64,000 nt of DNA, taken from IMG/VR virus record IMGVR_UViG_2563366947_000002. One strand, 5' to 3'. This document shows positions 5,204 through 61,281 of this stretch, piece by piece. The position numbers and the translations under genes are program-made. The notes under the pieces are model-generated. The model was given only the letters and a program-made list of their open reading frames with translations, did not search any database and was not told the origin of the DNA. Source of the stretch: a virus (lineage: Duplodnaviria; Heunggongvirae; Uroviricota; Caudoviricetes). Position 1 is the stretch's first letter. The number at the start of each line of letters is the position of its first letter.

Positions 5204-5206
5204 TAT

Positions 5207-5233: not shown

Positions 5234-5236
5234 AAA

Positions 5237-7737: not shown

Positions 7738-7763
7738 TGTCCTTCCTCCACGGATGACGGATA

Positions 7764-7789
7764 CAAAAAAAGGCCGCACATGGCGGCCT
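7764..7789 (-). terminator. minus-strand intrinsic terminator/attenuator upstream of 7737 gene
   Basis: AGGCCGC-acatg-GCGGCCT hairpin followed on minus strand by T7 run. Confidence 0.5.
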
Positions 7790-8020
7790 GCTTTGGCGTT
7801 ATGACTCCCTACCGCGCTTCGGCTGAAAGTTAATCGTCAAAAGAACCTTCAACGGGAGCCGTTAGCGCGATGGATTATGTGTAGTTTGTGATTTCCAAAA
7901 TAGTGTCAACCACTTTTTGTGGATTTTATTTTTTGACCGAAATTTGGCCTAAATCATGTTGATGTAGTTAATTATTTTTATAACATAAAACTTCATTTTG
8001 TTTACATGAAGGATGGTGTA

Positions 8021-8629: not shown

Positions 8630-8649
8630 GTTACGCCGCGGAGGCAGAA

Positions 8650-9042
8650 TTGAAAAGATTGGCTATTGCTTTACTGGCGTCTTTCCCTTTGATCGCGAGC
8701 GCCGGAAATTTACAAGTTAAGTGCGGTCGGTTTGATATAAAAATCTATCCAGATGCCATATTTCTGAATGGGAATAAGGTTGATAACGCACACCGAAAAA
8801 CTGAATCTGACGTAATGAGCTATGTGTTCCAGGAGTATGCGGAGATGGGGGGAACTTACACGCTGTACTCGCTGGATGTTCCTTCTCGCGGTGATATGAC
8901 ATTATCCCATCAATGGCAGAACGCCGATGGCGAAGCTCTGCGCGAGGTTAAAACAGAAAAATGTGGCACTTTCCATTCTTTTAAAGGGAAAGCGCCAAAT
9001 GTTAAATCTGTGCTTGAAAAACAGCGCGCAGGTGATTTTTAA
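8650..9042 (+). CDS. secreted protein of unknown function
   Basis: 130 aa with N-terminal signal peptide MKRLAIALLASFPLIASA. Confidence 0.5.
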   Translation: MKRLAIALLASFPLIASAGNLQVKCGRFDIKIYPDAIFLNGNKVDNAHRKTESDVMSYVFQEYAEMGGTYTLYSLDVPSRGDMTLSHQWQNADGEALREVKTEKCGTFHSFKGKAPNVKSVLEKQRAGDF

Positions 9043-9064
9043 ACTGCGTTAGAACTTTGAACAT

Positions 9065-9108
9065 GGCGACAACACATCTTGGTGGCTGCGTTGTCGCTGT
9101 ATGCTTTT
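9065..9108 (+). terminator. possible terminator hairpin
   Basis: 8-bp GCGACAAC/GTTGTCGC stem with 16-nt loop followed by short T-run; weak. Confidence 0.3.
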
Positions 9109-9130
9109 ATAATATAAAGCATTAAAGTTT

Positions 9131-9748
9131 TCATTTTTGTCGGATCTTTTCCAGCATATTTAATTCATTATCACTTTCTGCTGCTGAGACGGTTGGCCTC
9201 ACATTTCCGAAATATTTCCTGTGAGACTCATGACTTATGTATTCACCGACAGTTTCATTCTTGAATATACGAATTTGACATATGCGAGATCCAACAATAA
9301 GTTCTACAGGGCTATTCCCATGATTAAATAACTCTAAAGATATACAGCCTCTGTACCCTGGTTGTATCATGGTATTTAATGAAAGACCAAGCCTTGTATA
9401 GCTGCTTCTGGACAATACATCAGCGTAGCAATCTGGTGGCAAACAAACATATTCTAATGTTGTTGCCAGTACCACTTGATTCGGGTAAACAATGAATCTA
9501 TCCCCAAGATCTCTCCTTGTTTCCTGGAAAAATGTTCTGATTGGTTGATGAGTATCATTGTTTTTAGAGGGAATTAACTCTATTGACGGCTTCCTTGTCA
9601 TAATAGACACTAAAAAATCGTAACCAAGTCTAAGGTCTATGGTGAAGTTCCCAATTTGGTTTTTATTTAGAAGAGGTTCAATGAACAACGACTCAGGTTC
9701 TTCTGATTCATAATATTGCAGCAATTCAGCTTTGCTTAGGAGATTCAT
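9131..9748 (-). CDS. dCTP deaminase (Dcd) family / dUTPase-fold protein
   Basis: GYRGCISLELFNHGNSPVELIVGSRICQIRIF and IDLRLGYDF align with E. coli Dcd motifs; start ATG at 9748 overlaps upstream stop (ATGA). Confidence 0.7.
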   Translation of the reverse strand: MNLLSKAELLQYYESEEPESLFIEPLLNKNQIGNFTIDLRLGYDFLVSIMTRKPSIELIPSKNNDTHQPIRTFFQETRRDLGDRFIVYPNQVVLATTLEYVCLPPDCYADVLSRSSYTRLGLSLNTMIQPGYRGCISLELFNHGNSPVELIVGSRICQIRIFKNETVGEYISHESHRKYFGNVRPTVSAAESDNELNMLEKIRQK

Positions 9749-10818
9749 TGTGCACTCCATTTTTCAAGAATCATTACGTTTCGAATCGATTTTTCAACCA
9801 AATCATTTATAGTTTTTTCTATGGCTTCTTTTGACAACCCAGACCATATACCCGTAGGTTTTTCCCATTCAGAGCATAAGTACTGCCAGCTGCTGTTAAT
9901 AAAAGCATGCATTTCATTGTGGTCGCGAATAACAAAAGGACGCACATTATCAAAAGCTGATTTCACATCAAGCAAAGGTGTCGGCAATGTCAAACAAGGA
10001 GAAATAATCTGCCCACCCTTATGTAAGGCTGATATCACAGCATTGAACATGCCAACAACTGGATTTTCCACTTTGTTCAAAAAGTCGCTTACAATTTTAA
10101 CTCTATCTTCTGTGGATGGGTGAGTATAGCTTGCAGGATGAGAGCCAGCTAATTTGTATAAGAAATCTACCCCACTTTTTCCAATAAATTGGGCACTAAA
10201 TAGATCTGCAAAATATTCTCTGCAATGATTTATCCAAATAACATCAGGTAGATTACTCCATTCTGGTCCAGGAAGTGTGCCTTTGTCCTTGGAACGATAG
10301 TTAAGACAGGCAAGCTCAGAAATACCTTTGCTAATATCAACGAAATGTCCCAATTCGTGATATAAAGGTATAGAGCATAATGGTCGTCTTCTGTACATTT
10401 CAGGTAATGAAATCTGGATTAATTCGACCTCGAATTTGACATTTAAAACTTCATCAAATAAAGAATACAAATTCTTGTTTACAGACTTAAAATAAAACCC
10501 ATGCATATCTGGAGATAGGGCAGTGGTTATAAGTGTTTTTTCACTTATCCATTTTTTACAGGCATCATTTAAGCAATAAACAATCTCGTAGGGAATTTTC
10601 TTTGTAGTACTGCCAGTGAAAAAATTAACTGCATCGGTGATAAAAAAAGTACAATCCGCAATTATTTTATCAGCAACATTCACATGGTTTTCATAGAGCT
10701 TATCTACCGCTTCTTGTAGAACAGCAAGATATTCATGCATGTCTTTAGAAAAATAGGGAGATTCTGATATCTCCCTTAGCTTATTTCGAACTAATGTAAG
10801 TTGTGTAAATGCAAGCAT
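9745..10818 (-). CDS. HExxH metallopeptidase-like protein (ImmA/IrrE-type motif)
   Basis: 357 aa; SIPLYHELGHFVD followed about 40 aa later by REYFADLFSAQFIG, the HExxH...E pattern of ImmA/IrrE peptidases; TAATG overlap with upstream gene. Confidence 0.5.
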   Translation of the reverse strand: MLAFTQLTLVRNKLREISESPYFSKDMHEYLAVLQEAVDKLYENHVNVADKIIADCTFFITDAVNFFTGSTTKKIPYEIVYCLNDACKKWISEKTLITTALSPDMHGFYFKSVNKNLYSLFDEVLNVKFEVELIQISLPEMYRRRPLCSIPLYHELGHFVDISKGISELACLNYRSKDKGTLPGPEWSNLPDVIWINHCREYFADLFSAQFIGKSGVDFLYKLAGSHPASYTHPSTEDRVKIVSDFLNKVENPVVGMFNAVISALHKGGQIISPCLTLPTPLLDVKSAFDNVRPFVIRDHNEMHAFINSSWQYLCSEWEKPTGIWSGLSKEAIEKTINDLVEKSIRNVMILEKWSAQ

Positions 10819-11123
10819 TAAATGTACTCTAATACATTCCGGGCCATTACGGGTTCTAACATATCTTCGCTAGTTACTTTGGTTAGCACCTGGGCGAGCG
10901 CCTTAGTGTGGCGTATCTCTACCGCGAGCGAGATGGACTCTCTGTGAGAAGGAATCTGTAATTGATCACCTTTATCTACACTTAAGTTTGAGGCTTCTCT
11001 GATCACCTCATAAACCCGTAACTTTAACTGCTGTGACACTTCTTGTTGAGATGCTATAAGCTGAAGTACAGTCTTGATTAACTTCAAAGAATCAGAAGCT
11101 TGCTGAGGAACCGCATAGAGCAT
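10818..11123 (-). CDS. small protein of unknown function, first gene of three-gene cassette
   Basis: 101 aa; strong AGGAGGGG SD; translationally coupled to downstream gene. Confidence 0.45.
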   Translation of the reverse strand: MLYAVPQQASDSLKLIKTVLQLIASQQEVSQQLKLRVYEVIREASNLSVDKGDQLQIPSHRESISLAVEIRHTKALAQVLTKVTSEDMLEPVMARNVLEYI

Positions 11124-11259
11124 AACCCCTCCTTTTCCCTTATCTATAACCGCTTTCTTTTTTCTGTGGATGTTAAAAGTAGAAGCGGTTTTTACCTTTT
11201 ATAATATATATAGTGTCTAAAACTAATTTTGGCACTATATATGGCATGATATCTATGTT

Positions 11260-11305
11260 TTAAAGACACAAAAGCTCTGTTAAAACAGAGCTTTTGTGTC
11301 TTTAA
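11260..11305. repeat. perfect 20-bp inverted repeat with 6-nt spacer
   Basis: TTAAAGACACAAAAGCTCTG-ttaaaa-CAGAGCTTTTGTGTCTTTAA read directly from sequence. Confidence 0.9.
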
Positions 11306-11449
11306 CTTGATCATTTTCTCGCTGAAGTGTATGTCAGGCTTAGCTCATAATCAAGTTGCTTCCAAGCTAAAAATGAGCTATTTCACTGAAACACCAAGAG
11401 CGGGATGTTTCATTTATTTGCGTTGGGCCTGACGGGGTGCAGATGAGTT

Positions 11450-11737
11450 TTAGCTCATCACACTATAACGACGGGGAACGGAATTCTCCATCAGGTCACG
11501 AATTACTCCCGCTTCATGTAGTTCCTCTGTCTCCCAGTATCTGTTTGTCACCAGATCGAGGCTGGCTATGACCTTGTGCCGGTCATTCGGCATAGCCAAT
11601 TTTTCTGCTATAACCATCAGTGAAAACTCTTCATCCAGTAGAATTTGATACCAGACTTTTGACAGTTCCAACTCTCTAATGAGGGTGAAGCGCCGCTCAA
11701 GTGTGGCGGCAGAATAAGTGAAATCTATTTTTTTCAT
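11450..11737 (-). CDS. hypothetical protein
   Basis: 95-aa ORF downstream of antirepressor-like gene. Confidence 0.4.
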   Translation of the reverse strand: MKKIDFTYSAATLERRFTLIRELELSKVWYQILLDEEFSLMVIAEKLAMPNDRHKVIASLDLVTNRYWETEELHEAGVIRDLMENSVPRRYSVMS

Positions 11738-11796
11738 CGTGCGGATAATCCGATTATTTGGCAGTTAAATCCCCGGAGTCGCCGGGGATGCAGCAT

Positions 11797-12738
11797 TTAA
11801 CTAACAATCCAGTCCATAGCAATAACATCCTCTGGAGCTAAATCAATAGCATGGATTTTCCCGTCCCGGATGGTGCGCCAGTGCTTTCGTGATCCACCTT
11901 CGGGCCATACCCATACACCTTCAGGCCAGGAAGAACGACGACACACTGTTGCGTATCCAGTCCTGATCTTCTCTCTGGCGGTATGTAGTGACAGATTATC
12001 CTTTGGGCTTTCAGGCACAGGATGGTGGATTGCCTGAAACATCCCCATCTTTGGATGATACCAGCGTTTATTGCGTGGTTCTGCCTCCGACATCACCTGC
12101 TTAAAGGCTTTCCGGAAGGGGGCTAGGGCCACAATGGAGCGTCGCGCAAGCAAACCATCTGGAGTTAAAAACTCATGCGTATCGGTGGGAATCCGGTAAG
12201 CGTTGACCAGGTTTCGGCATTTGGCTTCAGTCAGGCCGCATTTCGCCGCCAGCTGGCGGTAGCCAATGTAGCCTTCCGGCATATTGCCTTTCTTTATTTG
12301 CTCGACGGTTTCAGCGACTTTGGACACTTGTGCCGATACTTCGGCTACCTGGGCATTAACAGCGTTGATCCGGCGTTCATGCTCAAGATGCATTTGCGCC
12401 ATTTCAGCCAGGATTTCGGCTTTTGATTTTAACGGTCCCCTGGCATTCTCCAGTTCGCGCCAGCGGTCCACCAGCCGGGCGGTGAATTCCGGAGAGAGCT
12501 GTGCGACGACAATGATACTATCGCGCTTGCCTTGTTCGCCTTCGAAGACATAGGCTTTTGTGTATTTATTAGGGCTAAGTGATTGATTATTCTCAACTGT
12601 AGCCAATGGCGTATGTTGGATAACACCTTTAGCAACAAGTCTTTCGATGCTGCGTTTAACATCAGAGTGACGACTTCCCACCAGTTTCGCGATCTCAATA
12701 CTGGTCATTGTCGCTTTGCGAGAGATGGGCAGATTCAT
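11797..12738 (-). CDS. antirepressor-like protein with C-terminal small RR..W..G..W / DW-ending domain
   Basis: 313 aa; ATGA overlap with upstream icd-like ORF; paralogue of 49085..49792 plus 48888..49088. Confidence 0.45.
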   Translation of the reverse strand: MNLPISRKATMTSIEIAKLVGSRHSDVKRSIERLVAKGVIQHTPLATVENNQSLSPNKYTKAYVFEGEQGKRDSIIVVAQLSPEFTARLVDRWRELENARGPLKSKAEILAEMAQMHLEHERRINAVNAQVAEVSAQVSKVAETVEQIKKGNMPEGYIGYRQLAAKCGLTEAKCRNLVNAYRIPTDTHEFLTPDGLLARRSIVALAPFRKAFKQVMSEAEPRNKRWYHPKMGMFQAIHHPVPESPKDNLSLHTAREKIRTGYATVCRRSSWPEGVWVWPEGGSRKHWRTIRDGKIHAIDLAPEDVIAMDWIVS

Positions 12739-12953
12739 CAGTGCACCTCCACGCAGTTCATCGGCAGATTCCAGTAATTGAGGATCTCCATCGCATCAAG
12801 AGTGAAGCGTGCGGCAAAAATGCAGGGTTCTTCAGGAAGGTATGAACGAGCTTCTGCTTCGGTAGCAGCCATTACGCAGATATACAGGTGTTTTTGGCAG
12901 GAATAGAAACGCCAGATAAATTCAGAATGAGTTGGGGTAGGGATAGTAGCCAT
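12738..12953 (-). CDS. Icd-like small protein (positional)
   Basis: 71 aa with EFIWRF motif shared with paralogue at 49792..50015; AAGGAGG SD. Confidence 0.4.
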   Translation of the reverse strand: MATIPTPTHSEFIWRFYSCQKHLYICVMAATEAEARSYLPEEPCIFAARFTLDAMEILNYWNLPMNCVEVH

Positions 12954-13133
12954 ATTGGCAGCCTCCTTTTGCTAATTTAAGGAGCTACCGCGTGAGGTTC
13001 CAATCTCAATGGCGGTAGCACTGACTGGGTTGGAACTACCGGCGCAAAAGGGAACCGGCCTGCCTTTCGGCAGCCCAGCCAGCACTACCATTGATCTCTG
13101 AGCTAAACGCTACGTATGGCTGTGCGATGGCAT

Positions 13134-13175
13134 GACACAAAAAAAGACGCTTTCGGCGTCTGTGTCGCCTTTTGC
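13134..13175. terminator. bidirectional intrinsic terminator in icd/ant leader
   Basis: GACGC-tttcg-GCGTC hairpin with A7 upstream and overlapping GGCG...CGCC hairpin with TTTT downstream. Confidence 0.55.
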
Positions 13176-13265
13176 ATTATCCGGGGTTCCAATCCCGGCA
13201 CCCGTTTTTCTAAGGTGCCGTAGAAATATACCCCACGATAATGCCAGGGCGCAACAGTCAGTATT

Positions 13266-13433
13266 TTATGCTTTGGCGGATTTTTTCCGGGCTTGCTTGC
13301 AGGCGTAGGCCATTGCTTTAGCTTTCACTTCATCCAGCTTCCCGGTGATCACTTCTTTTCCGAGAGTGACAAACCAGTCATAGCAACCGCCAGTAATGTT
13401 CTTGATTTGAAAGTTGAGGTAGCGAACAGTCAT
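13266..13433 (-). CDS. small protein (55 aa), unannotated in ORF track
   Basis: ATG with GGGGG SD; MTVRYLNFQIKNITGGCYDWFVTLGKEV...; ends upstream of terminator at 13134. Confidence 0.3.
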   Translation of the reverse strand: MTVRYLNFQIKNITGGCYDWFVTLGKEVITGKLDEVKAKAMAYACKQARKKSAKA

Positions 13434-13753
13434 TTTGACACCCCCAGCGCGAGTAAAGAATGCAGATTATCGCGTGAGTGGTGGACGACGAGTGATGGGA
13501 AAAGACTGTAGTTGTTCATAGTGTAGTGACTCCTTGCTTTCGGAGCCGCCATCGACTGTTCCACGGTCTGGTGGCGGCGCAATAAAGGCTGGAACACCGT
13601 GAGTCAACGGGGGCTTTTCAGCCACCTATATTGCACCGCCATAGGTATGGCGGCGGCAATAATACGAAAAACTAAACAGTTTGTCTCAAAAAGTTGACCG
13701 GTGTGCCAATCGGTAGTGAATGTACATCGGGGAAATTCACAATTCAACTTAAA

Positions 13754-13771
13754 ATGTTAGAAAACTAATTT
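13754..13771 (+). promoter_or_regulatory. putative repressor operator (17-bp motif copy)
   Basis: ATGTTAGAAAACTAATTT; one of 11 or more related copies. Confidence 0.5.
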
Positions 13772-14343
13772 ATCATTTCAATCTCCATCTGATACAACGC
13801 CATTTCATCGGCATTGTGCCGTATGAAATCTGCTTTTCCGCCTATTTTTCCATCAGCATGAACAGGGACCAGCCAGGGATATTGTTCTCGGACCTCGGCT
13901 GGCGCTGCGTACTGGTGGTGCCATTTACACAAAGGGAGGACATATTTATGCGCGTTCTCTGCCGTTCTCCCGAAGATATGGTGCAGGGATACTACTGGGC
14001 TATGTTGCCCGTGAATATGGCAGGCAATGCAGGGGAGAGTACCGATAGCGGTCTGTATCCGGCGTTCATCGGCTGTGAGTGATCTGCCCTTCAGGCCGCG
14101 TGACGTGCGTGTTTTTTTGGACGGAGCGGATACAGCTTTCTCTTTTCTCCGCTGGTCATATTGCTTTGCTTTTTCAATTTTTTTTTGCCGATATTCAGGC
14201 GATGCGGCTTTTTCTCTCGCTCGCTGCTGCTGGCGTTGAGCTTGTTGAAGGCGCTTTGCCCTTTGTTCCTCTCGCCAGGCTGGGTCAGCCAATTTTTGCA
14301 TGGCTTTTTGTCTCTGTTTCTCCCAATAACTCTGTTTCTGCAT
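13765..14343 (-). CDS. Ref-like HNH endonuclease with basic low-complexity N-terminus
   Basis: 192 aa; K/R/Q-rich N-terminal 90 aa then CIACHIHGQHSPVVSLHHIFGRTAENAHKYVLPLCKWHHQ HNH motif. Confidence 0.5.
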   Translation of the reverse strand: MQKQSYWEKQRQKAMQKLADPAWREEQRAKRLQQAQRQQQRAREKAASPEYRQKKIEKAKQYDQRRKEKAVSAPSKKTRTSRGLKGRSLTADERRIQTAIGTLPCIACHIHGQHSPVVSLHHIFGRTAENAHKYVLPLCKWHHQYAAPAEVREQYPWLVPVHADGKIGGKADFIRHNADEMALYQMEIEMIN

Positions 14344-14391
14344 GATGGCTGCCTCTTACTTATCAGCGATTTTTTTATGATTGATCAATAT

Positions 14392-14425
14392 CGTTAGATA
14401 ATCAAAATTGATTTTCTAACACAAA
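14392..14425. promoter_or_regulatory. putative operator pair (inverted) in divergent promoter region
   Basis: CGTTAGATAATCAAAATTGATTTTCTAACACAAA; two motif copies head-to-head. Confidence 0.5.
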
Positions 14426-14615
14426 ACATTAATATCTTCGCTGATAACTGTTTGGAGGACATGATGCTTATAGCTTTAAGTGCGATCCACCAGCCATCTG
14501 TGAACGAGATCGGTCTGTTCTATGTGCTGTTTTTCGGGGCGTTGGCGCTACTTGAACTTGGTATTGAGCTTTTTGCCGTGCTGATGTTTTGCGTCACGAT
14601 GCTGGGGAAATTTTG

Positions 14616-15239
14616 ATGGTGAAACGTGTTTTGAAAATTTACATCGCGGGGCCGATGACTGGTTATCCAGATTACAACCGTGCGGCGTTTGATGCGAAAG
14701 CGAGCGAGCTGATGGCTGAAGGGCATATCGTTCTGAATCCAGCTGTGTTACCTGGTGGCCTTTGTCAGAGTGAATACATGGATATTTGCCTGGCAATGAT
14801 GCGTTCTGCTGATGCGATCTATCTGCTTAAGGGATGGGATGTGTCCGCAGGAGCACGTGCAGAACACGCTCTGGCTGAAAAACTGGGGTTGACGGTAATT
14901 TATGAAGCACCATCTGACACAGATTGCAGAATGGCAGCGCATCTTTACCGTGAACTGGTCGATGCGTTACGTGATGTTGCTATTGAATGTCACGGCACGG
15001 ATCAGCTTCGCGCCCGCTTAAGCAATACCCTTTCCAGTTACCTGTCTTTAGCTGAAGGATACAACCTCCGGCAGCGGAGAATGGTCAAATTAATCACGCG
15101 TTTATCTCAATCCCTGGCAAATGCCGAACCAACTAATCCGCTACCTAATGACGCAATGAATTATCTGAAGTCATGCGGCGTTGTTTCTGAAGATGCAGTT
15201 CGTTTTGTGGAGTTTATGTCTCAGAGGATGTCGGCGTGA
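14616..15239 (+). CDS. nucleoside 2-deoxyribosyltransferase-like (DUF4406-like) protein
   Basis: KIYIAGPMTGYPDYN Rossmann-like N-terminus; ORF track starts at TTG 14589, ATG at 14616 has SD. Confidence 0.45.
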   Translation: MVKRVLKIYIAGPMTGYPDYNRAAFDAKASELMAEGHIVLNPAVLPGGLCQSEYMDICLAMMRSADAIYLLKGWDVSAGARAEHALAEKLGLTVIYEAPSDTDCRMAAHLYRELVDALRDVAIECHGTDQLRARLSNTLSSYLSLAEGYNLRQRRMVKLITRLSQSLANAEPTNPLPNDAMNYLKSCGVVSEDAVRFVEFMSQRMSA

Positions 15240-15553
15240 GCTGGCGGGGGTGGGGAAGGGCAGGAATCATGATACTCCGCCAGTGCGCCGGAACTATGAC
15301 GGTCGAGAGTATTGGGAAGCTGATCGGTCGTACCGGTGATGCCGTCAGGACTAAAGCGCGAGAGCTTGGGATCAGCATGATTCTGAAAGGTGACTTTCAC
15401 CAGTCAGCCAAATACCGGCAGAGCGATATAGAGCTGGCGCGGCAGCTTCATCAGTGTGGCGTTCCCCGCCGTGAGATCGCAGAAAAACTCGAAATGCCCC
15501 TGGGCATGATTAATCAGTACGTTTATTTCGAAAGGAGAGTGTATGAAGTCTGA
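15236..15553 (+). CDS. putative HTH DNA-binding protein
   Basis: 105-aa ORF; start uncertain. Confidence 0.35.
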
Positions 15554-15902
15554 AGGTTTAACGCCCGCACAACTGGCAGAGCGTAACGCTGAATTACCCA
15601 GGATTACCCAGGAAAAAGCCTTCCACATACTCGAACGATTAGAAACGCTCGCTACGGAGGAGGATATATCCCCGGAGAAACTGGTTGAGTTCAGCCGTGT
15701 GATATTGCGTCGCAAGAACGATATGGAGCGGCTGACATCTGGCGCTCCATCCTTATCAGTCAGTCCAGCGCTTTATTGCAGCTTCTGCAACAAATCCCAG
15801 CACACCGTTAAAAAGTTAATTGCTGGGGACGCCGTTTTCATCTGCGACGAGTGTGTGGATGCGTGCAACAACGTTATCCGGGAAGAGGACTTAAGAAAAT
15901 GA
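15543..15902 (+). CDS. ClpX N-terminal zinc-binding-domain (ZBD) homologue, standalone
   Basis: C-terminal [40 protein letters not shown] closely matches E. coli ClpX residues about 12-50 (C4 zinc ribbon); no AAA+ domain follows. Confidence 0.7.
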
Positions 15903-18580: not shown

Positions 18581-18584
18581 TGAG

Positions 18585-19286
18585 GTGGATCAAAAAATGA
18601 AAGAACGCGGGATGATTTTTAACGATGAGATGGTCAGGGCCATCCTCGAAGGAAGGAAGACGCAGACTCGCCGACCTGTAAAAAATGTCAGGGCCGATAA
18701 CTGCCTGGTTATCCGTAAACCGACAAAGAAACGCAATGGTGTCTATACCCACGTTATGGATGCACCTGAACATGGTTTATGCCCGTTCGGTAACGTTGGT
18801 GATCGCATATGGGTCCGTGAGGCGTGGGCGATATTAGGCAATGAGGATGGTTGCAGTGTGGACTGGAACGACAACCTTTGTCGTGGCGATGAGAAGAACG
18901 CAGCAAGGATTTATCGGGCCAGTTGTGAGCAAAAGCCGGGTGATTACGGCTTGTGGTCGATACCCGATGATGCCGACTGGAAACCTCACACTGTGAATGA
19001 AAAATTTGATGGCGGGTGGTGTCCATCAATTCACATGCCGCGCTGGGCATCGCGCATTCTTCTGGAAATTACCAACGTGCGCGTTGAGCGGTTGAACGAT
19101 ATCAGCGAATGCGATGCAAGGGCTGAGGGCGCACCAACAGAATCGACCCTCATTGGCGATAAGCATTACCCATGTTTCCGTAGCCTATGGAAATCAATTT
19201 ATGGCGAAGATAGTTGGAACGCTAATCCTTGGGTGTGGGTAATCGAGTTTAAGCGTATTCAGGGGGCAACCAGTGAGCAAGATTGA
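18585..19286 (+). CDS. hypothetical protein
   Basis: 233-aa ORF. Confidence 0.4.
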   Translation: MDQKMKERGMIFNDEMVRAILEGRKTQTRRPVKNVRADNCLVIRKPTKKRNGVYTHVMDAPEHGLCPFGNVGDRIWVREAWAILGNEDGCSVDWNDNLCRGDEKNAARIYRASCEQKPGDYGLWSIPDDADWKPHTVNEKFDGGWCPSIHMPRWASRILLEITNVRVERLNDISECDARAEGAPTESTLIGDKHYPCFRSLWKSIYGEDSWNANPWVWVIEFKRIQGATSEQD

Positions 19287-26161: not shown

Positions 26162-26514
26162 CGACGCCCCCTTGCCGGATATCGACCTGCATTAGTATCC
26201 GGTGCAATAAAGCCGGTAGTGGGGCGAGTGAAAGCGAGATTAATCTTCTCGACCATAGTGCGATAATTTTCCTGATAGTGGGCCAGGAGTTTTTCGGCGG
26301 CAATGATGGTTACTTTCCGGACGTAGCTTTCTGCTTCCTCCAGATTTCGCCAGTTTTTTTCGAGGGTAAACACAGGGACGGCCTCAAGCCCGGTCATGAT
26401 GCCGAATACAACGACAGCATGACTGTTCTTAACACCAGCGGCGAAGGTTACGGTGTAACCATCCACCGTGAAGCGTCTTGATTCCGTGATTTGACTCTGC
26501 AAAGCACCCTCCAA
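26158..26514 (-). CDS. hypothetical protein
   Basis: 118-aa ORF, first gene downstream of operator at 26558. Confidence 0.4.
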   Translation of the reverse strand: MEGALQSQITESRRFTVDGYTVTFAAGVKNSHAVVVFGIMTGLEAVPVFTLEKNWRNLEEAESYVRKVTIIAAEKLLAHYQENYRTMVEKINLAFTRPTTGFIAPDTNAGRYPARGRR

Positions 26515-26557
26515 AATAGGCGAGGGTACTTTACAGCAAAGATATCAATCTAAAAAG

Positions 26558-26577
26558 ATGTGTTAGAAATTTAATTT
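26558..26577 (+). promoter_or_regulatory. putative repressor operator
   Basis: ATGTGTTAGAAATTTAATTT overlapping cre stop codon. Confidence 0.5.
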
Positions 26578-27604
26578 ATGAATCCATCAAGCGGCTATTA
26601 GCCCCCACAGACACACCGCCACGGCGCAGATACCGCATAAGTGTTTCCGGTTTCTTCCAGGTTCCTTCCTGCATAATCTCCACCATAGACACCTGCTTTT
26701 CAGCCATATCGATAGCGGCCCCGACACGAGCACTATGCCCGGTCCACGTCCGGTATCTCCCTTTGTTTGGCGTGGCATCCCTTTTATTCAGCAACACCCA
26801 GGCGTCGCTGAATATTTTCTCCATTGCAGGTGCAGTAAGGGGCGTTGTCGTAATCCTGGCCTTATTGCTACGGTGTATCGGCGGGAACAGCACCGCGTCA
26901 GGATGTTCACGAAGCCCGGAAACATCCAGCCAGTCATTCAGCACAGCAGTAGTGCGACGGGAAAGCACCTTATCAAGCCCGGCGGCGGTCGTTATTGTCT
27001 TCGTGTGTGAAATATGTAGCGTGACAGTGTCACCTGTTTGGTCCAGATCTCCTACACGAATACGCGAGATTTCCGACATACGCATCAGCGTATTGTATGC
27101 AACAAAGAGAAAAGCCCGGTTGCGCAGGTCCACCAGCCGTTCTGACCTGGACAACAGGACGTCGAGCAGTTTCAGGTCGTCCCATCGCAGCGGTATAGCC
27201 TGGCCTGTTCGTTCGCCTTTTTCCGTTGCCGCTTCGCGCCGGATACGCCGCATAGCCAGAGAAACACTTTTATCATCCGAAAGTGGCGGAAGGCCACAAT
27301 GAGAAAGCAGCATGTTAAGCATGGCGTAGTGCTTATCAATGGTGGTCGAAGCCAGATCGGCATCATGCAACTGAAGAAAATACTCGCGGGCCATTTCTGG
27401 TGAGATCGGAAACCAGGCAAGCTGGCGAGCGTGACACCAGCGCGCCCAGGAATGAAACACCAACCGGAGGTCGCGCAGAGTATTCGGCGCATAAGCACCC
27501 TGATCATTCATGAACCGCATAAAGTTTTCTGCGGCTTCCTGGTACTCTTTGCCAATGTTGCGCAGAAAACCACCGGAACTGCCAGAGATAATTAATTCAC
27601 TCAT
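26576..27604 (-). CDS. cre: Cre-family tyrosine site-specific recombinase
   Basis: 342 aa; blocks SWARWC, VSLAMRRIRRE, YNTLMRMSEISRIRVGDL, GHSARVGAA, LMRYLRR align with P1 Cre including catalytic R, H, R, W, Y positions; roughly 40-45 percent identity by eye. Confidence 0.9.
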   Translation of the reverse strand: MSELIISGSSGGFLRNIGKEYQEAAENFMRFMNDQGAYAPNTLRDLRLVFHSWARWCHARQLAWFPISPEMAREYFLQLHDADLASTTIDKHYAMLNMLLSHCGLPPLSDDKSVSLAMRRIRREAATEKGERTGQAIPLRWDDLKLLDVLLSRSERLVDLRNRAFLFVAYNTLMRMSEISRIRVGDLDQTGDTVTLHISHTKTITTAAGLDKVLSRRTTAVLNDWLDVSGLREHPDAVLFPPIHRSNKARITTTPLTAPAMEKIFSDAWVLLNKRDATPNKGRYRTWTGHSARVGAAIDMAEKQVSMVEIMQEGTWKKPETLMRYLRRGGVSVGANSRLMDS

Positions 27605-27755
27605 GAAACCATTTCACCTCTATATACAGATGACGCTACGCGAAAAATATAAAAATGACAGGGTAGCTATAAGTTAATTTTCAAAATACAAGCCTTTGAT
27701 TGGAGGCACGTATTTTCAGTGATGTCAATACTGTTCATCTACACATGATTATAGC

Positions 27756-27789
27756 CTAACTTTAAATAATGCCAATTATTTAAAGTTAT
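27756..27789. other. lox-like recombination site (13-8-13)
   Basis: CTAACTTTAAATA-ATGCCAAT-TATTTAAAGTTAT; outer ATAACTT/AAGTTAT as loxP, inner arm bases and spacer differ; 150 bp upstream of cre. Confidence 0.75.
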
Positions 27790-27884
27790 AAAATGCCGAT
27801 TTTTTTTAATCCATCATAGATTGATGATGACCAGTAACACGTTGCCTTCATGGTCTTTAATTAGCGAAGTGTGGTTTCTACGGT

Positions 27885-27903
27885 TGGTTTTCTAAAATTG
27901 ATG
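27885..27903 (-). promoter_or_regulatory. weak operator-like motif
   Basis: TTGGTTTTCTAAAATTGATG, partial match to operator consensus. Confidence 0.3.
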
Positions 27904-27969
27904 ACAAAAAATCACAGTTCGATCCTTTACTCACTCTGTTATTCGACATAAATTTGTCATAGTAATTTT

Positions 27970-27998: not shown

Positions 27999-29036
27999 AT
28001 GAGTAAGAAGTCGATCGAGAAAGAGTACAAACGGTTCCTGCAAACCGCTGAACGGTGGAAAGAGCTGGTGGTCGCAAACTCTGTTTTCCATGATACCAGT
28101 TATGCTGGCGAGGAATTCCGCCATGTTGCATTAACGCATGACCAAAACATATTAGAAGAAGCTGAAAAATGTCTTGCTGAATGGAAAGCCTTCGTTGACA
28201 TGTGCCGCGATGCCGACGGCAAAGCGTCGAACATTGTTGAGTCTGTATATTCTCCGATCCCATTCATCATTGAGGACACCAATCAAAGCACGCATGTCGT
28301 TGTGCAAAGCGCTACAACAACACGTACATTTACACGTGAACAATTGCTAAAAAAATACGACAAAATCATAAAGAAAAGCCTGAAAAATAGGGTTTTTTCT
28401 CAAATCGTAGGTGCTCTTGAAGAAGAACAGCGCTTCTTTGAAGCTGAGCCTGAAGGCGAGATCTACCGGGCGCGTAAAGAGGCATATACAGATGTTGTGC
28501 TGACAACAAACATCGAAGGCAGCAATGCCCTTTCTCGCTTTAGAGTTGGCGCACATGGCGCATTGGTTTTCGCAAGACAACCGAAGACAACGATCCCCGT
28601 TGTCAATAATGTTGGTGAACGCCGGAGCATTACAATTTATTCTGGCGTCGAATCGGTACCTTGCAGCCTTCTCGGCGATTTTAACTTATATCGTGTTCGT
28701 GACCTGGAAAAACACCAGCCAAGCTACGTTGCGAAGTCGTACATCTTAAGGAACATCGATATTCGCAATGAAAGCCTTAAGCAGAAATCCGCTAAGATGC
28801 TGGAGGATGCCGATCCGGCTATTCGCCATATCATTGAGCGTAAGATACGTACATCACGTGAAGCAATGGCAAGGCTGGATAAAATGGATCTGGAATTGTT
28901 AGACGTAATGATGGCCTCTGGAGACGACCTGACCGGCATTAAACTGAATGAAGCTCGTAAAAAATACGGCAAAGCAATCGAAGAACGTTACGGATACACA
29001 TTCCCCCAAACGCAGTACGCCGCGAAGCTCTGGTAA
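27999..29036 (+). CDS. putative immunity repressor (positional analogue of P1 c1; not recognised by sequence)
   Basis: 345-aa ORF between lox and convergent pacB-like gene, preceded by operator copies, the position c1 occupies in P1. Confidence 0.35.
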   Translation: MSKKSIEKEYKRFLQTAERWKELVVANSVFHDTSYAGEEFRHVALTHDQNILEEAEKCLAEWKAFVDMCRDADGKASNIVESVYSPIPFIIEDTNQSTHVVVQSATTTRTFTREQLLKKYDKIIKKSLKNRVFSQIVGALEEEQRFFEAEPEGEIYRARKEAYTDVVLTTNIEGSNALSRFRVGAHGALVFARQPKTTIPVVNNVGERRSITIYSGVESVPCSLLGDFNLYRVRDLEKHQPSYVAKSYILRNIDIRNESLKQKSAKMLEDADPAIRHIIERKIRTSREAMARLDKMDLELLDVMMASGDDLTGIKLNEARKKYGKAIEERYGYTFPQTQYAAKLW

Positions 29037-29063: not shown

Positions 29064-30572
29064 TTATATATCCAGATCCGGCATTTCGATATCCGCCAGA
29101 ACCTGATCTCGGAAAGTTGCCATTTCGGCACCAATATCTTCATTAGCAGGCACATAGTCCACCAGCATAGTGAAGCAGTAGGTATCCCATCGGTCAGGCG
29201 ATTTGATGTTTAGCTTTTGCCGCATGTGCTCTTTGCGCATCATCGCCATTTTCCCTTCTTCATTCAGTAAAAAGGGGATTTTTGACGCTTGCTCTGCCGT
29301 TTTAGGGTCACTGTCTATCCGCATACGCCCTGACTTTATGGCATCACGCGCCATAATATTTGCGTAGGCACGCTGATTAACAAATCGCTCCCTGTCTTTG
29401 TTCGCAAACATGGGTTTTCCCCACCGAATACGTACCGGGTTCGCACCACGACGCACCAACTGCGCACACGTATCAGAACCAAAACCATCAGCATCAACCG
29501 CGATTGTTATATTCGGGTATTTTTCCGGCGTACATTCGTTATATATGAAGTCAGCAAAGGCCAATGGGTCCATAGTGCCAGGCATCTCCATTACCTTAAA
29601 GTTAACAACGCGCCGCTTATCCCTGTGACCTGATACCTTGCAGATGTTGAGGACCGACTTATCTCGCCCATTACCAACGTCAGCCGTTGCCACCCATCCC
29701 CAGTTTTTCTCCAACAACACCTTGCGGCGAGCAGCGCGATCGCATTCATCACGACCAAGCAAATAGCCGTTAATTTCTCGTGGGAACTGACCAAGCACCT
29801 TGACCATGTACTCAATAGAATCGCGCCCGCCATATTCCAGAAGCTTCTGCTTGATGAATTGTGGTGTGACGAACGGTGATTCTTCCGAGTTAAGAACAAT
29901 TGCTGTCCAGATCCCTTTCGGGTTGTCTGGGGTTTTTGCTTGAGAATGGTGCGAATCGTAGAAATAACCACTTGGCCTTGTTGGCTGGGATAGCATCAAC
30001 ATCCGGTTATCTTCTTCAGTAAGAGCACCGGTCATTACGCCGATCGCCTTATCAGATATACCAGATGCTTCATCCAGAATTAGAAGCAAATGTGCCGCGT
30101 GTTCCCCCGCCAGCGCTTCTTCGTTGCCGAGTCGATAACCTTTGCAGAGAACTTCCCAAATCCCCTTACGGGAGCGCTCATAAAACATGGTGTCAGAGAG
30201 GACAAAATAGGTCTGCAACCACCCATGACGCTTAACTGCATTCGCCCAATACTGTTTAACGTATTTGAATACGCCTGTTTTTACCTGGCCTATCTTGTTA
30301 GCAACAATGATGACACGGGCATCGGGGAACAGGATCATGAAAATCAACAGCAACATCGCGGTAAGGGACGACTTCCCCGTTCCGTGTCCGGACGTGACGG
30401 TCGTCCTACTCCCCGTTTCCTGCACGGACTGAATGATCTGCTGCTGCTGGTGGGAGGGGAACATCCCAAAAATATCGACAACAGCTTGGGTAAAGTTGTA
30501 GCGGTATTTGATTACCATATCGCGCCAGCGTGGATCGCTGGTGACGCATTTAATCTTGCGCCCTCCAGCCAT
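29064..30572 (-). CDS. pacB: terminase large subunit-like ATPase (PacB-like)
   Basis: 502 aa; Walker A TSGHGTGKSS and Walker B LLLILDEASG; downstream of small-subunit-like gene with start/stop overlap. Confidence 0.55.
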   Translation of the reverse strand: MAGGRKIKCVTSDPRWRDMVIKYRYNFTQAVVDIFGMFPSHQQQQIIQSVQETGSRTTVTSGHGTGKSSLTAMLLLIFMILFPDARVIIVANKIGQVKTGVFKYVKQYWANAVKRHGWLQTYFVLSDTMFYERSRKGIWEVLCKGYRLGNEEALAGEHAAHLLLILDEASGISDKAIGVMTGALTEEDNRMLMLSQPTRPSGYFYDSHHSQAKTPDNPKGIWTAIVLNSEESPFVTPQFIKQKLLEYGGRDSIEYMVKVLGQFPREINGYLLGRDECDRAARRKVLLEKNWGWVATADVGNGRDKSVLNICKVSGHRDKRRVVNFKVMEMPGTMDPLAFADFIYNECTPEKYPNITIAVDADGFGSDTCAQLVRRGANPVRIRWGKPMFANKDRERFVNQRAYANIMARDAIKSGRMRIDSDPKTAEQASKIPFLLNEEGKMAMMRKEHMRQKLNIKSPDRWDTYCFTMLVDYVPANEDIGAEMATFRDQVLADIEMPDLDI

Positions 30573-31936
30573 TAATCATCCTCCGGCGGTTCTATCGCGA
30601 TATCATCATCTCCGGCGTCATACCCTGCATCAGATGCATCATAATCACCGTAAATTTCAGCAGTTGCCGAAGGGTCAATATCCAGCTCTTCGTCGTTGGC
30701 CTCGAATTCTCCTGCTTTACGCTCGCCATTGCGGTCGTAATCTCCGCACCCCAATTCTTCAACAATGGTTGCCACATCCGCCCGGCGCTCTGCCAGCCAT
30801 TGCGGATGGTTAGCCTGAAGCGTTGCAAACTCCCTTGCCTCTTTGTCCAGCTGTTCATCATCAACATCATTGACGTCAGAAACAGGTGGTTCGAGAAGAG
30901 TGATAGCTTTCGCCGCGCGCGCCGCGAGGATAGCCGGGACGCTGACACCCTGGCGCTCGATGTATTCAGCAACACCGATATCATCCAGTTCCTCGCGCTC
31001 ACGCATACGTATAGCGGCGGCGATAACTCTGGCTGCGCGTGCGTCAGCGCCAATGCGATATTCAATCTCTTTGCCACGCTGTTCGGCCTGTAGGCGTGCT
31101 AATTCGAGTTTTTCTCTGGCCTCAGCCTCTTTGAATGCTTGCTGGCGAGCGCTCTGACGAAGCTTTTCATCCCCCTGTCGCAGCTTTTGTTCGGACTGAT
31201 ATATAGCTGCCAACCTACTGATAAAATCATTCATGTAGTAGGCCGCGTCACTGATTAGACCGAGAAGGCGCTGCCCAGGGTGCATTCCTTCTGGCTCTTT
31301 ATCGCCCAAGGCGTCTATTTCCGCCTGTAGACGTTCGGCCTCCTGATCAACAATGCTTTGATACTGAAGTGCGCGCTCTTGCGCCATTTGAATTGCTAAC
31401 CGCAGGTGTTCTTCTGCGCCGTTCTTCATCATATCGCGAGCCACATTCGTAGTTGGCAATGTGGCACGCTGCACAGCACCGTCAGGGATCATTGCAGAAG
31501 ATCCCTCAATTTTTGGGGCGCTTTTATCTTCTTCGGGGATCATTTTCGCCATTTTTTCGCGCAATGATCTCCTGACGGATTCTTTTATCTCATTGTTATT
31601 ATTTGAATTATTTTCATGATCCGAAGTTTTCTTTCTCGGCATACTTCGGAAAGAACCTGCGCCCTGCGAATTGTCAATTTCTGTAAATTTTGTTTTTTCT
31701 GCACCCTCTTCCAGCTTTTTTGTTGCTCTTCCCGCCCGTTTTTTTTCAGGTGATTTGGTGCTTTTTTTTGTTGTCTTTACCTGCGACCGCACCTCATTTT
31801 TTTTCATATTGAGATGCTTTCTGGCTGTATTGAAGCTAAGGCCATGCTCCTCACAGTATTCCTTTACAGTGATCCCTTTTTCTTCACGCAACGCCATAAA
31901 GCGGGCGCGGTGCTCCTCCCAATTAACCAGACTCAT
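30572..31936 (-). CDS. pacA: terminase small subunit-like protein (PacA-like)
   Basis: 454 aa; N-terminal HTH-like region, central basic low-complexity, acidic C-terminus; immediately upstream of pacB-like gene. Confidence 0.45.
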   Translation of the reverse strand: MSLVNWEEHRARFMALREEKGITVKEYCEEHGLSFNTARKHLNMKKNEVRSQVKTTKKSTKSPEKKRAGRATKKLEEGAEKTKFTEIDNSQGAGSFRSMPRKKTSDHENNSNNNNEIKESVRRSLREKMAKMIPEEDKSAPKIEGSSAMIPDGAVQRATLPTTNVARDMMKNGAEEHLRLAIQMAQERALQYQSIVDQEAERLQAEIDALGDKEPEGMHPGQRLLGLISDAAYYMNDFISRLAAIYQSEQKLRQGDEKLRQSARQQAFKEAEAREKLELARLQAEQRGKEIEYRIGADARAARVIAAAIRMREREELDDIGVAEYIERQGVSVPAILAARAAKAITLLEPPVSDVNDVDDEQLDKEAREFATLQANHPQWLAERRADVATIVEELGCGDYDRNGERKAGEFEANDEELDIDPSATAEIYGDYDASDAGYDAGDDDIAIEPPEDD

Positions 31937-33855: not shown

Positions 33856-33931
33856 TGGTGGCCCCTACCGGACTTGAACCGGTGACCGTGCGATTATGAG
33901 TCGCCAGCTCTAACCACTGAGCTAAGGGGCC
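33856..33931 (-). tRNA. tRNA with CAU anticodon (Ile2/lysidine-type or Met)
   Basis: 76 nt with encoded CCA; 5' GGCCCCTTAGCTCAGTGGTTAGAGC and anticodon loop CTCATAA closely resemble E. coli ileX. Confidence 0.85.
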
Positions 33932-33940
33932 AATTAGTTT

Positions 33941-34051
33941 TTATTTTCGACGCCTGAGATTCTTCGCTACTTGTTCTACTCCGTATACGATCACAAGCAG
34001 AAATAGCAAAGACCATCCAGGGTTCTTATCAATATACGTCCAAAAATCCAT
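33941..34051 (-). CDS. small hydrophobic peptide (36 aa), third gene of TerB-like operon
   Basis: ATGA overlap with upstream gene; MDFWTYIDKNPGWSLLFLLVIVYG...; not in ORF track. Confidence 0.35.
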   Translation of the reverse strand: MDFWTYIDKNPGWSLLFLLVIVYGVEQVAKNLRRRK

Positions 34052-34215
34052 CATGAGTTCCTGAACGCAGCTTTAATAATCGGCAATAGCAATACCACAG
34101 CTACTGAAACCAGTGCCCCATCAGCCAACACCGACATCACTTTGCTGGTGAAATCCACCAGCACGGACAAAACGAGAAAACCAATGGCGCACGCAATACG
34201 CGCCTTGCCAATCAT
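34051..34215 (-). CDS. small membrane peptide (54 aa), second gene of TerB-like operon
   Basis: TAATG overlap with TerB-like gene; MIGKARIACAIGFLVLSVLVDF...; not in ORF track. Confidence 0.4.
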   Translation of the reverse strand: MIGKARIACAIGFLVLSVLVDFTSKVMSVLADGALVSVAVVLLLPIIKAAFRNS

Positions 34216-34649
34216 TACAGATAATCTTCCACACGAAGGCCCAAACGACGGCCTACTTCTTCCAGTACTTTGTGTTCTGCTGGCTCGATTTCACCGTCCG
34301 CTTCTGCAATCGTCAGCATGTTAACGAATACTTCTTCCGCTTCTTTTGGATCATTTTTGATATCTTCAATTTCGCGAAGGATATTCATGCGACCAACACG
34401 GAAACCAGCTTCCAGTTGCTCAGTAAAACGGGTGATTGTTGCGGTAATTTCGTTGCCAAAATGACTTAAGCGAGGATTAGAGCGGACAAGCTGATCAAGT
34501 TTCGCTGTTTCTTCCTTTTCGATTTCACCATCTGCGGCAGACACCAACAAACAGCCACCGATAATGGCCTCCATCAGATCGCGATTCTCAACCCTTTTCA
34601 GCTCTACTTTTGCTGAAGCGACTTTCTTACCGAAAAATTTACCGAACAT
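34215..34649 (-). CDS. TerB-like tellurite-resistance-domain protein (TciA-like)
   Basis: 144 aa; LMEAIIGGCLLVSAADGEIEKEE and TIAEADGEIEPAE repeats typical of TerB; adjacent to tRNA cluster as tciA is in P1. Confidence 0.65.
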   Translation of the reverse strand: MFGKFFGKKVASAKVELKRVENRDLMEAIIGGCLLVSAADGEIEKEETAKLDQLVRSNPRLSHFGNEITATITRFTEQLEAGFRVGRMNILREIEDIKNDPKEAEEVFVNMLTIAEADGEIEPAEHKVLEEVGRRLGLRVEDYL

Positions 34650-34916
34650 TGGTTATCCCTCAATAAACATGACGTATTTATTAGGTTGCGGTGCCTGGTG
34701 CCTCCAGGTGACGTTAACCAGTTAACAATTAACGCCGGGATTTTTGACTTAACCACTAAGGAGGATTGTTTTAACTGTTCCGCGTGCGCTTAGCCGCATT
34801 CACCGCAATGGTAAGAGCACTTGGCTGGCTGGGCGGCGATGACGCCTGTACGCATTTGGTGATCCGGTTCTGCTTCCGGCATTCGCTTAATTAGCCAAAT
34901 ACTCTTAACGTTGCGC

Positions 34917-35003
34917 TGGCGGAGAGTAATGGAATCGAACCATCATCGCTTGCGCAATGGGACGGTTTTCAAGACCGCTTGAGCACCATGCGCCCTACTC
35001 TCC
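34917..35003 (-). tRNA. class II tRNA, anticodon UGA (Ser-type)
   Basis: 87 nt; 7-bp acceptor GGAGAGT/ACTCTCC, anticodon loop CTTGAAA, long variable arm with GCAA loop, T-loop TTCGATT, encoded CCA; D-arm weak. Confidence 0.6.
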
Positions 35004-35386
35004 GGCCGTTGTGGTGGCCGGTACTGAATCTCCGGCATACGGTGCAGCCAATTAGGACTACGGACGATCACCGCTCGCGAAAGGGAAGATTTGCGGCCGC
35101 ATTTCCCTAACATCCAAGAAAGCTATCGCATCAGCCTGCGAATCCACCACAACGTTGAGAACACTGGTTGTCACGCTGCAACGCAACATTTATTCGTAGA
35201 TTGGGATATGACCCCGTTACGCCAGTGTTCTCAACGTTGTAGTGCCGGTTACGGTTCCGGCCAGGCCTCTTCCTCAACGGGGTGTTCTCCGTACGGACTA
35301 CCGTTTATTGGTCGTTCCTGCGGTTTATGTTGTGAAGCCAGATGCTTATCTTCTGGTTGCTTCAAAGAGCTGCACTTCATCACAAC

Positions 35387-35460
35387 GGTAAGGGTACTTC
35401 GTAGGGATTCGAACCCTCTGCCAAGCTCGGCGATCTCCGACGTCGCAAAATACCCTTACC
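35387..35460 (-). ncRNA. aberrant tRNA-like element
   Basis: 74 nt with 10-bp terminal stem GGTAAGGGTA/TACCCTTACC and canonical T-arm AGGG-TTCGAAT-CCCT but no D/anticodon arrangement I could fold. Confidence 0.25.
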
Positions 35461-35468
35461 TGTTGTGC

Positions 35469-35544
35469 TGGTGCCGATTAACGGACTCGAACCGCTGACA
35501 TCCTGCTTACAAGGCAGGCGCTCTACCAACTGAGCTAAACCGGC
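35469..35544 (-). tRNA. tRNA-Thr (anticodon UGU)
   Basis: 76 nt; GCCGGTTTAGCTCAGTTGGTAGAGC..., anticodon loop CTTGTAA, T-loop TTCGAGT, encoded CCA. Confidence 0.85.
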
Positions 35545-35546
35545 AT

Positions 35547-35622
35547 TGGCGATGATGGATGGATTTGAACCATCGACCCGTTGATTAACAGTCAACCGCT
35601 CTAACCGCTGAGCTACACCATC
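35547..35622 (-). tRNA. tRNA-Asn (anticodon GUU)
   Basis: 76 nt; anticodon stem GTTGA/TCAAC, loop CTGTTAA, T-arm GATGG-TTCAAAT-CCATC, encoded CCA. Confidence 0.85.
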
Positions 35623-61280: not shown

Positions 61281-61281
61281 G

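What the first reader, a model, noticed from the sequence alone, without database searches (positions are those of the whole stretch)
26576..27789. Divergent Cre homologue with a lox site variant (altered inner arm bases and spacer)
The recombinase keeps all Cre catalytic positions but is only about 40-45 percent identical by eye. The adjacent 34-bp site CTAACTTTAAATA-ATGCCAAT-TATTTAAAGTTAT keeps the outer ATAACTT of loxP but differs at inner arm positions and throughout the spacer. This suggests a co-evolved recombinase/site pair with distinct specificity, possibly orthogonal to Cre/loxP.
Basis: partly seen in the sequence, partly recalled or inferred. Interest (0 to 1): 0.7.

Follow-up and report, generated by a model that had tools for sequence, protein, structure and literature searches.

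The report
Dre recombinase and its rox site

Summary
The ORF at 26576..27604 (minus strand, 342 aa) is 100% identical to Dre (AAV84949.1) of Escherichia phage D6. The palindrome at 27757..27788 is an exact copy of the 32-bp site annotated as rox in GenBank AY753669.

Dre is 40.5% identical to P1 Cre, and all six catalytic residues are kept: R175, K202, H290, R293, W316, Y325. rox differs from loxP at arm positions 8-10 and at 5 of 8 central bases.

Published experiments show that Dre recombines rox and not loxP, and that Cre does not recombine rox (PMC4777119, PMC3553980, PMC12331466, PMC4957104). Dre does also recombine pox, the Panto site.

The outermost bases of the 34-mer are neither symmetric nor conserved in relatives.

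The window is not D6 itself. It is a D6-like phage-plasmid in which a 24-kb block around dre-rox is 99.4-99.9% identical to D6.

One lead may be new. The best sigma-70 promoter match in the whole 64 kb has its -35 hexamer inside the rox core and points at dre.

The parts
26576..27604 (-). dre, a Cre-like tyrosine recombinase of 342 aa. The ATG is at 27604..27602 and the stop codon is included at 26576..26578.
   Evidence: ORF list. 100% identical to AAV84949.1 Dre of phage D6. Pfam Phage_integrase hit at 5.3e-17. Best match among solved structures is Cre at 5e-69, aligned over residues 22-341. Catalytic R175, K202, H290, R293, W316 and Y325 are conserved.
27614..27621 (-). Shine-Dalgarno-like AGAGGTGA, 9 nt upstream of the dre ATG.
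   Evidence: Read directly from the sequence. ATAGAGGT is invariant in all five aligned relatives.
27757..27788 (.). rox, the 32-bp Dre recombination site TAACTTTAAATAAT-GCCA-ATTATTTAAAGTTA. Left arm 27757..27770, asymmetric core 27771..27774, right arm 27775..27788.
   Evidence: Exact match to the misc_recomb feature 'region of crossover (rox) site for Dre recombinase' in AY753669. The 14-bp arms are perfectly complementary and the symmetry stops at the edges. The site is identical in relatives whose Dre is only 90-94% identical, although both flanks vary.
27748..27775 (-). Sigma-70 promoter-like site reading towards dre: -35 TTGGCA (27775..27770, across the rox core), 16-nt spacer, -10 TATAAT (27753..27748).
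   Evidence: 11 of 12 consensus matches. It is the only match of at least 11/12 on either strand of the 64-kb window. The -10 is TATAAT in D6, L002 and L005, CATGAT in L004 and TGTAAT in the decayed L003. This is a consensus match only, and function is not shown.
27605..27756 (-). 152-bp rox-dre intergenic region. It has no cra-like ORF, unlike P1. It contains an invariant CAGTATTGACA block at 27733..27723 (minus strand).
   Evidence: Alignment of five relatives. P1 annotation for comparison: three cre promoters and cra lie between lox and cre. The single difference from D6 AY753669 within 26400..27900 is at 27707, C versus T.
27999..29036 (+). Context: c1 prophage repressor, on the other side of rox.
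   Evidence: ORF list. Annotated as c1 in AY753669 and MF356679.
29064..31936 (-). Context: pacB (29064..30572) and pacA (30572..31936) terminase genes. The order pacA-pacB-c1-site-recombinase is the same as in P1.
   Evidence: ORF list. Annotation of AY753669 and MF356679.

Best explanation
The locus is the dre-rox site-specific recombination module of a phage D6-type phage-plasmid (a P1-like plasmid prophage of E. coli and Salmonella).

Dre is a Cre-family tyrosine recombinase. By analogy with Cre, one monomer binds each 14-bp arm of rox and two rox sites are brought together by a tetramer. Tyr325, assisted by R175, K202, H290, R293 and W316, would cleave and exchange one pair of strands to form a Holliday junction, then the other pair. 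The asymmetric centre gives the site its direction.

Specificity differs from Cre/loxP because arm positions 8-10 are TAA instead of CGT. The Cre residues that face those bases (K43, R259, G263) are R44, P259 and K263 in Dre.

Shown here: the identity of gene and site, the conserved catalytic residues, conservation of rox among diverged relatives, and synteny with P1. Shown in the literature: Dre recombines rox, and there is no cross-reaction with Cre/loxP. Inferred from P1 Cre-lox biology: in the phage, the module resolves plasmid-prophage dimers so that copies can be partitioned, and it can circularise infecting, terminally redundant DNA.
For: - The window segment 26400-27900 is 99.9% identical to phage D6 records AY753669, MF356679 and NC_050154, which annotate dre and rox there.
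- The translated protein is identical to AAV84949.1, and the 32-bp rox is an exact match.
- The only nucleotide difference in that segment, at 27707, lies outside both gene and site.
- The Cre relationship is supported by PDB hits that are all Cre or Cre-derived Tre, best 5e-69, by 40.5% identity with the full catalytic set, and by the Pfam Phage_integrase domain.
- The same gene order as P1, pacA-pacB-c1-site-recombinase, is present.
- rox is unchanged in plasmids whose Dre is 94%, 90% and 90% identical, while the flanks diverge. This indicates selection on the site.
- 124 of 127 matching places in complete E. coli genomes are on plasmids, which fits a plasmid-prophage maintenance function.
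- Literature: rox has 14-bp repeats and a 4-bp spacer, and the active site is conserved (PMC4777119). Dre comes from phage D6, uses a 32-bp rox and shows no cross-reactivity with Cre (PMC12331466). Only cognate pairs co-integrate (PMC3553980). Arm positions C8G9T10 and Cre residues K43, R259 and G263 were identified as specificity determinants (PMC4957104).
Against: Nothing argues against the identification.

Caveats on the mechanism:
- The exact cleavage positions in rox have not been mapped. PMC4777119 says so, and no Dre structure is in the PDB copy searched.
- The natural roles, dimer resolution and cyclisation, are inferred from P1 and were not tested for D6 in anything I could read.
- I found no P1-type cluster of TGATCA/G pac hexamers in or near pacA. 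The position and direction of packaging relative to rox, which matters for the cyclisation role, therefore remains unknown.
- The primary papers, Sauer & McDermott 2004 and Gilcrease & Casjens 2018, are not held in the library. Their content is cited only through later papers and the GenBank annotation.
Confidence: 0.96

Rival explanations
1. A previously undescribed Cre homologue and lox-variant pair with new specificity. This is the novelty implied by the first reader.
For: The protein is only about 40% identical to Cre, and the site differs from loxP at 12 of 34 positions.
Against: Protein and site are identical to the published and deposited Dre/rox of phage D6. More than 200 papers in the library mention at least two of the terms Dre recombinase, rox and phage D6.
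Confidence: 0.01
2. A phage integrase with an attP site that inserts the element into the host chromosome.
For: It belongs to the Pfam Phage_integrase family. 3 of 127 matching places in E. coli genomes are on records labelled chromosome.
Against: The site is a simple 32-bp palindrome of lox type, without the arm-type sites or accessory-factor sites expected of an attP. 124 of 127 places are on plasmids of about 90 kb. The window carries plasmid-prophage modules and is collinear with circular D6. In published assays Dre acts on two identical rox sites without accessory factors.
Confidence: 0.01
3. An inactive remnant: the gene or site in this particular element is decayed.
For: Decayed copies do exist elsewhere. 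In S. dysenteriae CP026821 the site has 4 mismatches and the longest dre-homologous ORF is cut to 193 aa. In pSa1423-160k the left arm of the site is disrupted and no full-length ORF remains.
Against: In the window the ORF is full length and identical to the experimentally active protein. The site is identical to functional rox, and the ribosome-binding site is intact.
Confidence: 0.01

Closest known systems
Dre/rox of Escherichia phage D6 (GenBank AY753669, MF356679; Sauer & McDermott 2004, cited via PMC4777119 and PMC12331466)
   Same: The protein is 100% identical and the 32-bp site is 100% identical. The neighbours are the same: dut, orf3, orf2, dre, rox, c1, pacB, pacA.
   Different: The host element is not D6 itself. 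Five segments of the window have no D6 match, and the Cin-invertible C-segment is in the other orientation. There is one intergenic SNP at 27707.
Cre/loxP of phage P1
   Same: Same fold family and same catalytic residues. The genome position is the same, next to c1 and pacAB. Both sites are palindromes of lox type and share arm positions 1-7 and 11-13.
   Different: Protein identity is 40.5%. Arm positions 8-10 are TAA rather than CGT. The asymmetric core is 4 bp instead of 8 bp. There is no cra gene and no Dam (GATC) sites between site and gene; P1 has three annotated Dam sites there. No cross-recombination was seen in published assays.
Panto/pox (Pantoea sp. aB)
   Same: According to PMC4957104, the pox arms differ from rox at one position, and Dre and Panto each recombine the other's site.
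   Different: Panto is only 52% identical to Dre. The spacers differ at 4 of 8 positions, so rox and pox do not recombine with each other. I did not examine Panto sequences here.
Vika/vox, VCre/VloxP, SCre/SloxP, Nigri/nox
   Same: All are Cre-like tyrosine recombinases with lox-like palindromic sites, used as orthogonal tools.
   Different: They are more distant (Vika is 23% identical to Dre), their sites are 13-8-13, and they do not cross-react with rox.

Membership tests
Dre/rox of phage D6 | Recombinase sequence equals Dre (AAV84949.1) | tested here: met
   342 of 342 residues identical by direct comparison of translations. tblastn gives 100% to AY753669, MF356679 and NC_050154.
Dre/rox of phage D6 | 32-bp rox site TAACTTTAAATAATGCCAATTATTTAAAGTTA next to the gene | tested here: met
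   Exact match at 27757..27788, 152 bp upstream of dre. It is a single copy, with 0 expected by chance. It coincides with the rox feature annotated in AY753669.
Dre/rox of phage D6 | Position in the P1-like immC/pac region (pacA-pacB-c1-rox-dre) | tested here: met
   ORFs, 99.8% identical over 5.5 kb to the annotated D6 immC record.
Dre/rox of phage D6 | Dre recombines rox and not loxP; Cre does not recombine rox | not testable with these tools
   Literature only: PMC12331466, PMC3553980, PMC4957104. Because protein and site are identical, those results carry over directly.
Cre-like tyrosine recombinases | Catalytic R-K-H-R-W-Y set, including the tyrosine nucleophile | tested here: met
   R175, K202, H290, R293, W316 and Y325 align to Cre R173, K201, H289, R292, W315 and Y324. 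PMC4777119 lists the same five R/H/R/W/Y positions, without the lysine.
Cre-like tyrosine recombinases | C-terminal catalytic domain (Pfam PF00589) and full-length similarity to Cre | tested here: met
   PF00589 scores 62.6 bits against a cut-off of 27.1. phmmer to Cre chains gives 5e-69 over residues 22-341.
Cre-like tyrosine recombinases | N-terminal SAM-like domain (Pfam PF02899) | tested here: inconclusive
   21.6 bits against a cut-off of 22.3. The N-terminal domain nevertheless aligns with the Cre N-terminal domain from residue 22 onwards.
Cre/loxP of P1 (as the same system) | loxP sequence and Cre-level protein identity | tested here: not met
   22 of 34 site positions and 40.5% of protein positions are identical. 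It is a homologue, not Cre/loxP.

The most novel reading that the evidence does not exclude
The rox core may double as the -35 element of a dre promoter: TTGGCA at 27775..27770, a 16-nt spacer, then TATAAT at 27753..27748. Dre bound to rox would then repress its own transcription, giving an autoregulatory loop that P1 Cre-lox does not have in this form. I found no mention of this in the papers I could read, but I could not read the primary 2004 paper.
Probability: 0.2. Interest if true: 0.25.

Novelty: already known. Interest (0 to 1): 0.05.

Why it matters
For discovery it matters little. Dre/rox was described in 2004 and is a routine partner of Cre/loxP in mouse, zebrafish, CHO-cell and bacterial genetics.

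The result is a useful control for the scan. A reader with no tools correctly recognised a heterospecific Cre-like pair from raw sequence and predicted its orthogonality.

Three minor points are of practical value:
- Natural Dre variants at 90-94% identity keep an unchanged rox.
- The symmetric, conserved site is 32 bp rather than 34 bp.
- A strong promoter-like element overlaps rox. This could matter to users who place rox sites upstream of genes in bacteria.

Tried and rejected
- I tried to read the primary description (Sauer & McDermott 2004) and the D6 genome paper (Gilcrease & Casjens 2018). Neither is held, so I relied on GenBank annotation and later open-access papers.
- I considered that rox marks a mosaic boundary produced by Dre-mediated exchange, because many megablast matches to related plasmids stop within 0-25 bp of the c1-side edge of rox. 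Alignment showed only a variable intergenic stretch of about 110 bp, after which homology resumes and c1 is 86% identical. I rejected this as evidence of module exchange. It does show that rox is a conserved island.
- I looked for a P1-type pac site, meaning clusters of TGATCA/G hexamers, in pacA to support the cyclisation role. No 200-bp window holds 5 or more hexamers.
- I looked for Dam (GATC) sites in the dre regulatory region, as in P1 cre. There are none between dre and rox, and one at 27921 on the c1 side.
- I checked for extra rox-like sites in the window, allowing up to 3 mismatches. There are none.
- I did not use structure prediction, the large protein searches or the metagenome scans. 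The exact database match made them unnecessary.

Full report
**1. What is there**

A 342-aa ORF lies on the minus strand at 26576..27604. Upstream of its ATG by 152 bp is the palindrome TAACTTTAAATAAT-GCCA-ATTATTTAAAGTTA, at 27757..27788. The 32-mer occurs once in the window even with 3 mismatches allowed, and none is expected in shuffled sequence. The two 14-bp arms are perfectly complementary, and the symmetry stops exactly at their outer ends.

**2. Identification**

Megablast of 26400-27900 against phage records gives 99.9% identity to three records of Escherichia phage D6. Their annotation under the match reads 'dre: tyrosine recombinase' and 'region of crossover (rox) site for Dre recombinase'.

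- The translated ORF is identical, residue for residue, to AAV84949.1.
- The rox feature coincides with 27757..27788.
- The only base that differs from AY753669 within 26400..27900 is 27707. It lies between rox and dre, outside both.

The surrounding genes are those of the D6 immC region: dut, orf3, orf2, dre, rox, c1, pacB, pacA. This is the same order as around lox-cre in P1.

**3. Relationship to Cre/loxP**

All 17 matches among solved structures are Cre or the Cre-derived Tre, with a best E-value of 5e-69 over residues 22-341. No Dre structure is present. Pfam finds the Phage_integrase catalytic domain.

A global alignment with P1 Cre gives 40.5% identity. Cre R173, K201, H289, R292, W315 and Y324 align to Dre R175, K202, H290, R293, W316 and Y325. 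PMC4777119 gives the same Dre numbering for the five R/H/R/W/Y residues; it does not list the lysine.

Set against loxP in a 13-8-13 frame, the arms differ only at positions 8-10 (CGT to TAA), and the central 8 bp share ATG. PMC4957104 identifies those three arm bases, and the Cre residues K43, R259 and G263 that face them, as specificity determinants. In the window protein these residues are R44, P259 and K263.

**4. Function**

Shown by others, for this exact protein and site:

- Dre recombines rox efficiently in E. coli, B. subtilis and mammalian cells.
- Dre does not act on loxP, and Cre does not act on rox.
- Only cognate pairs co-integrate plasmids (PMC3553980; PMC12331466; PMC4957104).
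- Dre does recombine pox, and Panto recombines rox.
- The cleavage points in rox are still unmapped. Mutagenesis suggests that the functional crossover region is about as long as in loxP, which would extend it into the inner bases of the 14-bp repeats (PMC4777119).

Shown here, from comparative sequence:

- The dre-rox segment is present in 144 PLSDB plasmids, from Escherichia, Salmonella, Shigella and one Enterobacter.
- It is also present in 124 of 5426 complete E. coli genomes, and 124 of the 127 matching places there are on plasmids.
- In relatives whose Dre is 94%, 90% and 90% identical, the 32-bp rox is unchanged. The base just outside it (27789) changes from T to G, and the c1-side flank is unalignable for about 110 bp.
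- The conserved unit is therefore the 32-bp site, and it is under selection.
- Two decayed copies show what happens when selection lapses. In S. dysenteriae CP026821 the site has four substitutions and the longest dre-homologous ORF is truncated. In pSa1423-160k the left arm is disrupted and no full-length ORF remains.

Inferred from established P1 biology: in the phage-plasmid, Dre-rox resolves plasmid dimers before partition and can circularise infecting, terminally redundant DNA. I could not support the second role further, because no P1-type pac hexamer cluster is present near pacA.

**5. The host element**

The window is not phage D6 itself. It is collinear with circular D6, whose GenBank record is opened inside rox.

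- 23083-46966 is 99.4-99.9% identical to D6.
- The other matched blocks are mostly 94.8-99.0% identical; two are more divergent, at 91.2% (11512-15592) and 86.0% (63313-63999).
- Five segments have no D6 match.
- The Cin C-segment is inverted relative to the D6 record.

**6. A possibly new detail**

The consensus scan finds a promoter-like site on the minus strand. Its -35 hexamer, TTGGCA, lies across the rox core, and its -10 hexamer, TATAAT, lies 16 nt downstream, reading into dre. It is the only match of at least 11/12 on either strand of the whole 64 kb.

The -10 hexamer is kept in D6 and in two of the four diverged relatives. The -35 hexamer is conserved in any case because it is part of rox.

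If the promoter is real, Dre bound at rox should repress dre. This is a consensus match only. I rate it at about 0.2 and found no discussion of it in the papers I could read.

**7. Verdict**

Novelty is nil, because this is the published Dre/rox system. Interest is low.

Noticed in passing
window 27748-27775 (minus strand): The only sigma-70 consensus match of at least 11/12 in the 64-kb window has its -35 (TTGGCA) inside the rox core and its -10 (TATAAT) just outside, pointing at dre. This suggests possible autoregulation by Dre binding.
   Followed up: partly
window 27723-27733: The block CAGTATTGACA (minus strand) between rox and dre is invariant in all five diverged relatives. It contains a perfect TTGACA, followed 18 nt later by a weak TCCAAT/TCGAAT, and may be a second dre promoter or a regulator-binding site.
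   Followed up: no
window 27790-27915: The c1-side flank of rox is hypervariable between this element and a relative (L002), whereas rox, dre (94% aa) and c1 (86% aa) on either side are conserved.
   Followed up: partly
window 33856-35622; L008 (MF356679) 6084-7850: Four tRNA genes (Met-CAT, Ser-TGA, Thr-TGT, Asn-GTT) all lie on the minus strand. The public D6 record annotates only three and places them on the plus strand. ARAGORN run on D6 itself finds all four on the minus strand, so this looks like an annotation slip in MF356679.
   Followed up: yes
window 13008-13218 and 50065-50271: There are two C4 antisense RNA genes, one next to an isrK match and one next to the a1b1 target element. 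This means two immI-like anti-repressor control regions, matching the two icd/anti-repressor pairs annotated in D6.
   Followed up: no
window 61294-63948: The Cin-invertible tail-fibre C-segment is in the opposite orientation to the D6 reference, at 94.8% identity.
   Followed up: partly
window 4639-5244, 8058-11511, 18583-19261, 46967-48291, 60317-61293: These segments have no megablast match in phage D6. They are replaced or inserted modules that distinguish this D6-like phage-plasmid from D6. Their content was not examined.
   Followed up: no
L003 (CP026821, S. dysenteriae) 1952-1983 and L006 (pSa1423-160k) 1917-1948: These are natural decayed rox variants (4 and 3 mismatches) next to truncated or fragmented dre genes. 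They are examples of loss of the module.
   Followed up: partly
window 30572-31936 (pacA): There is no P1-type cluster of TGATCA/G pac hexamers in or near pacA, so the pac site of this element must differ from that of P1.
   Followed up: partly
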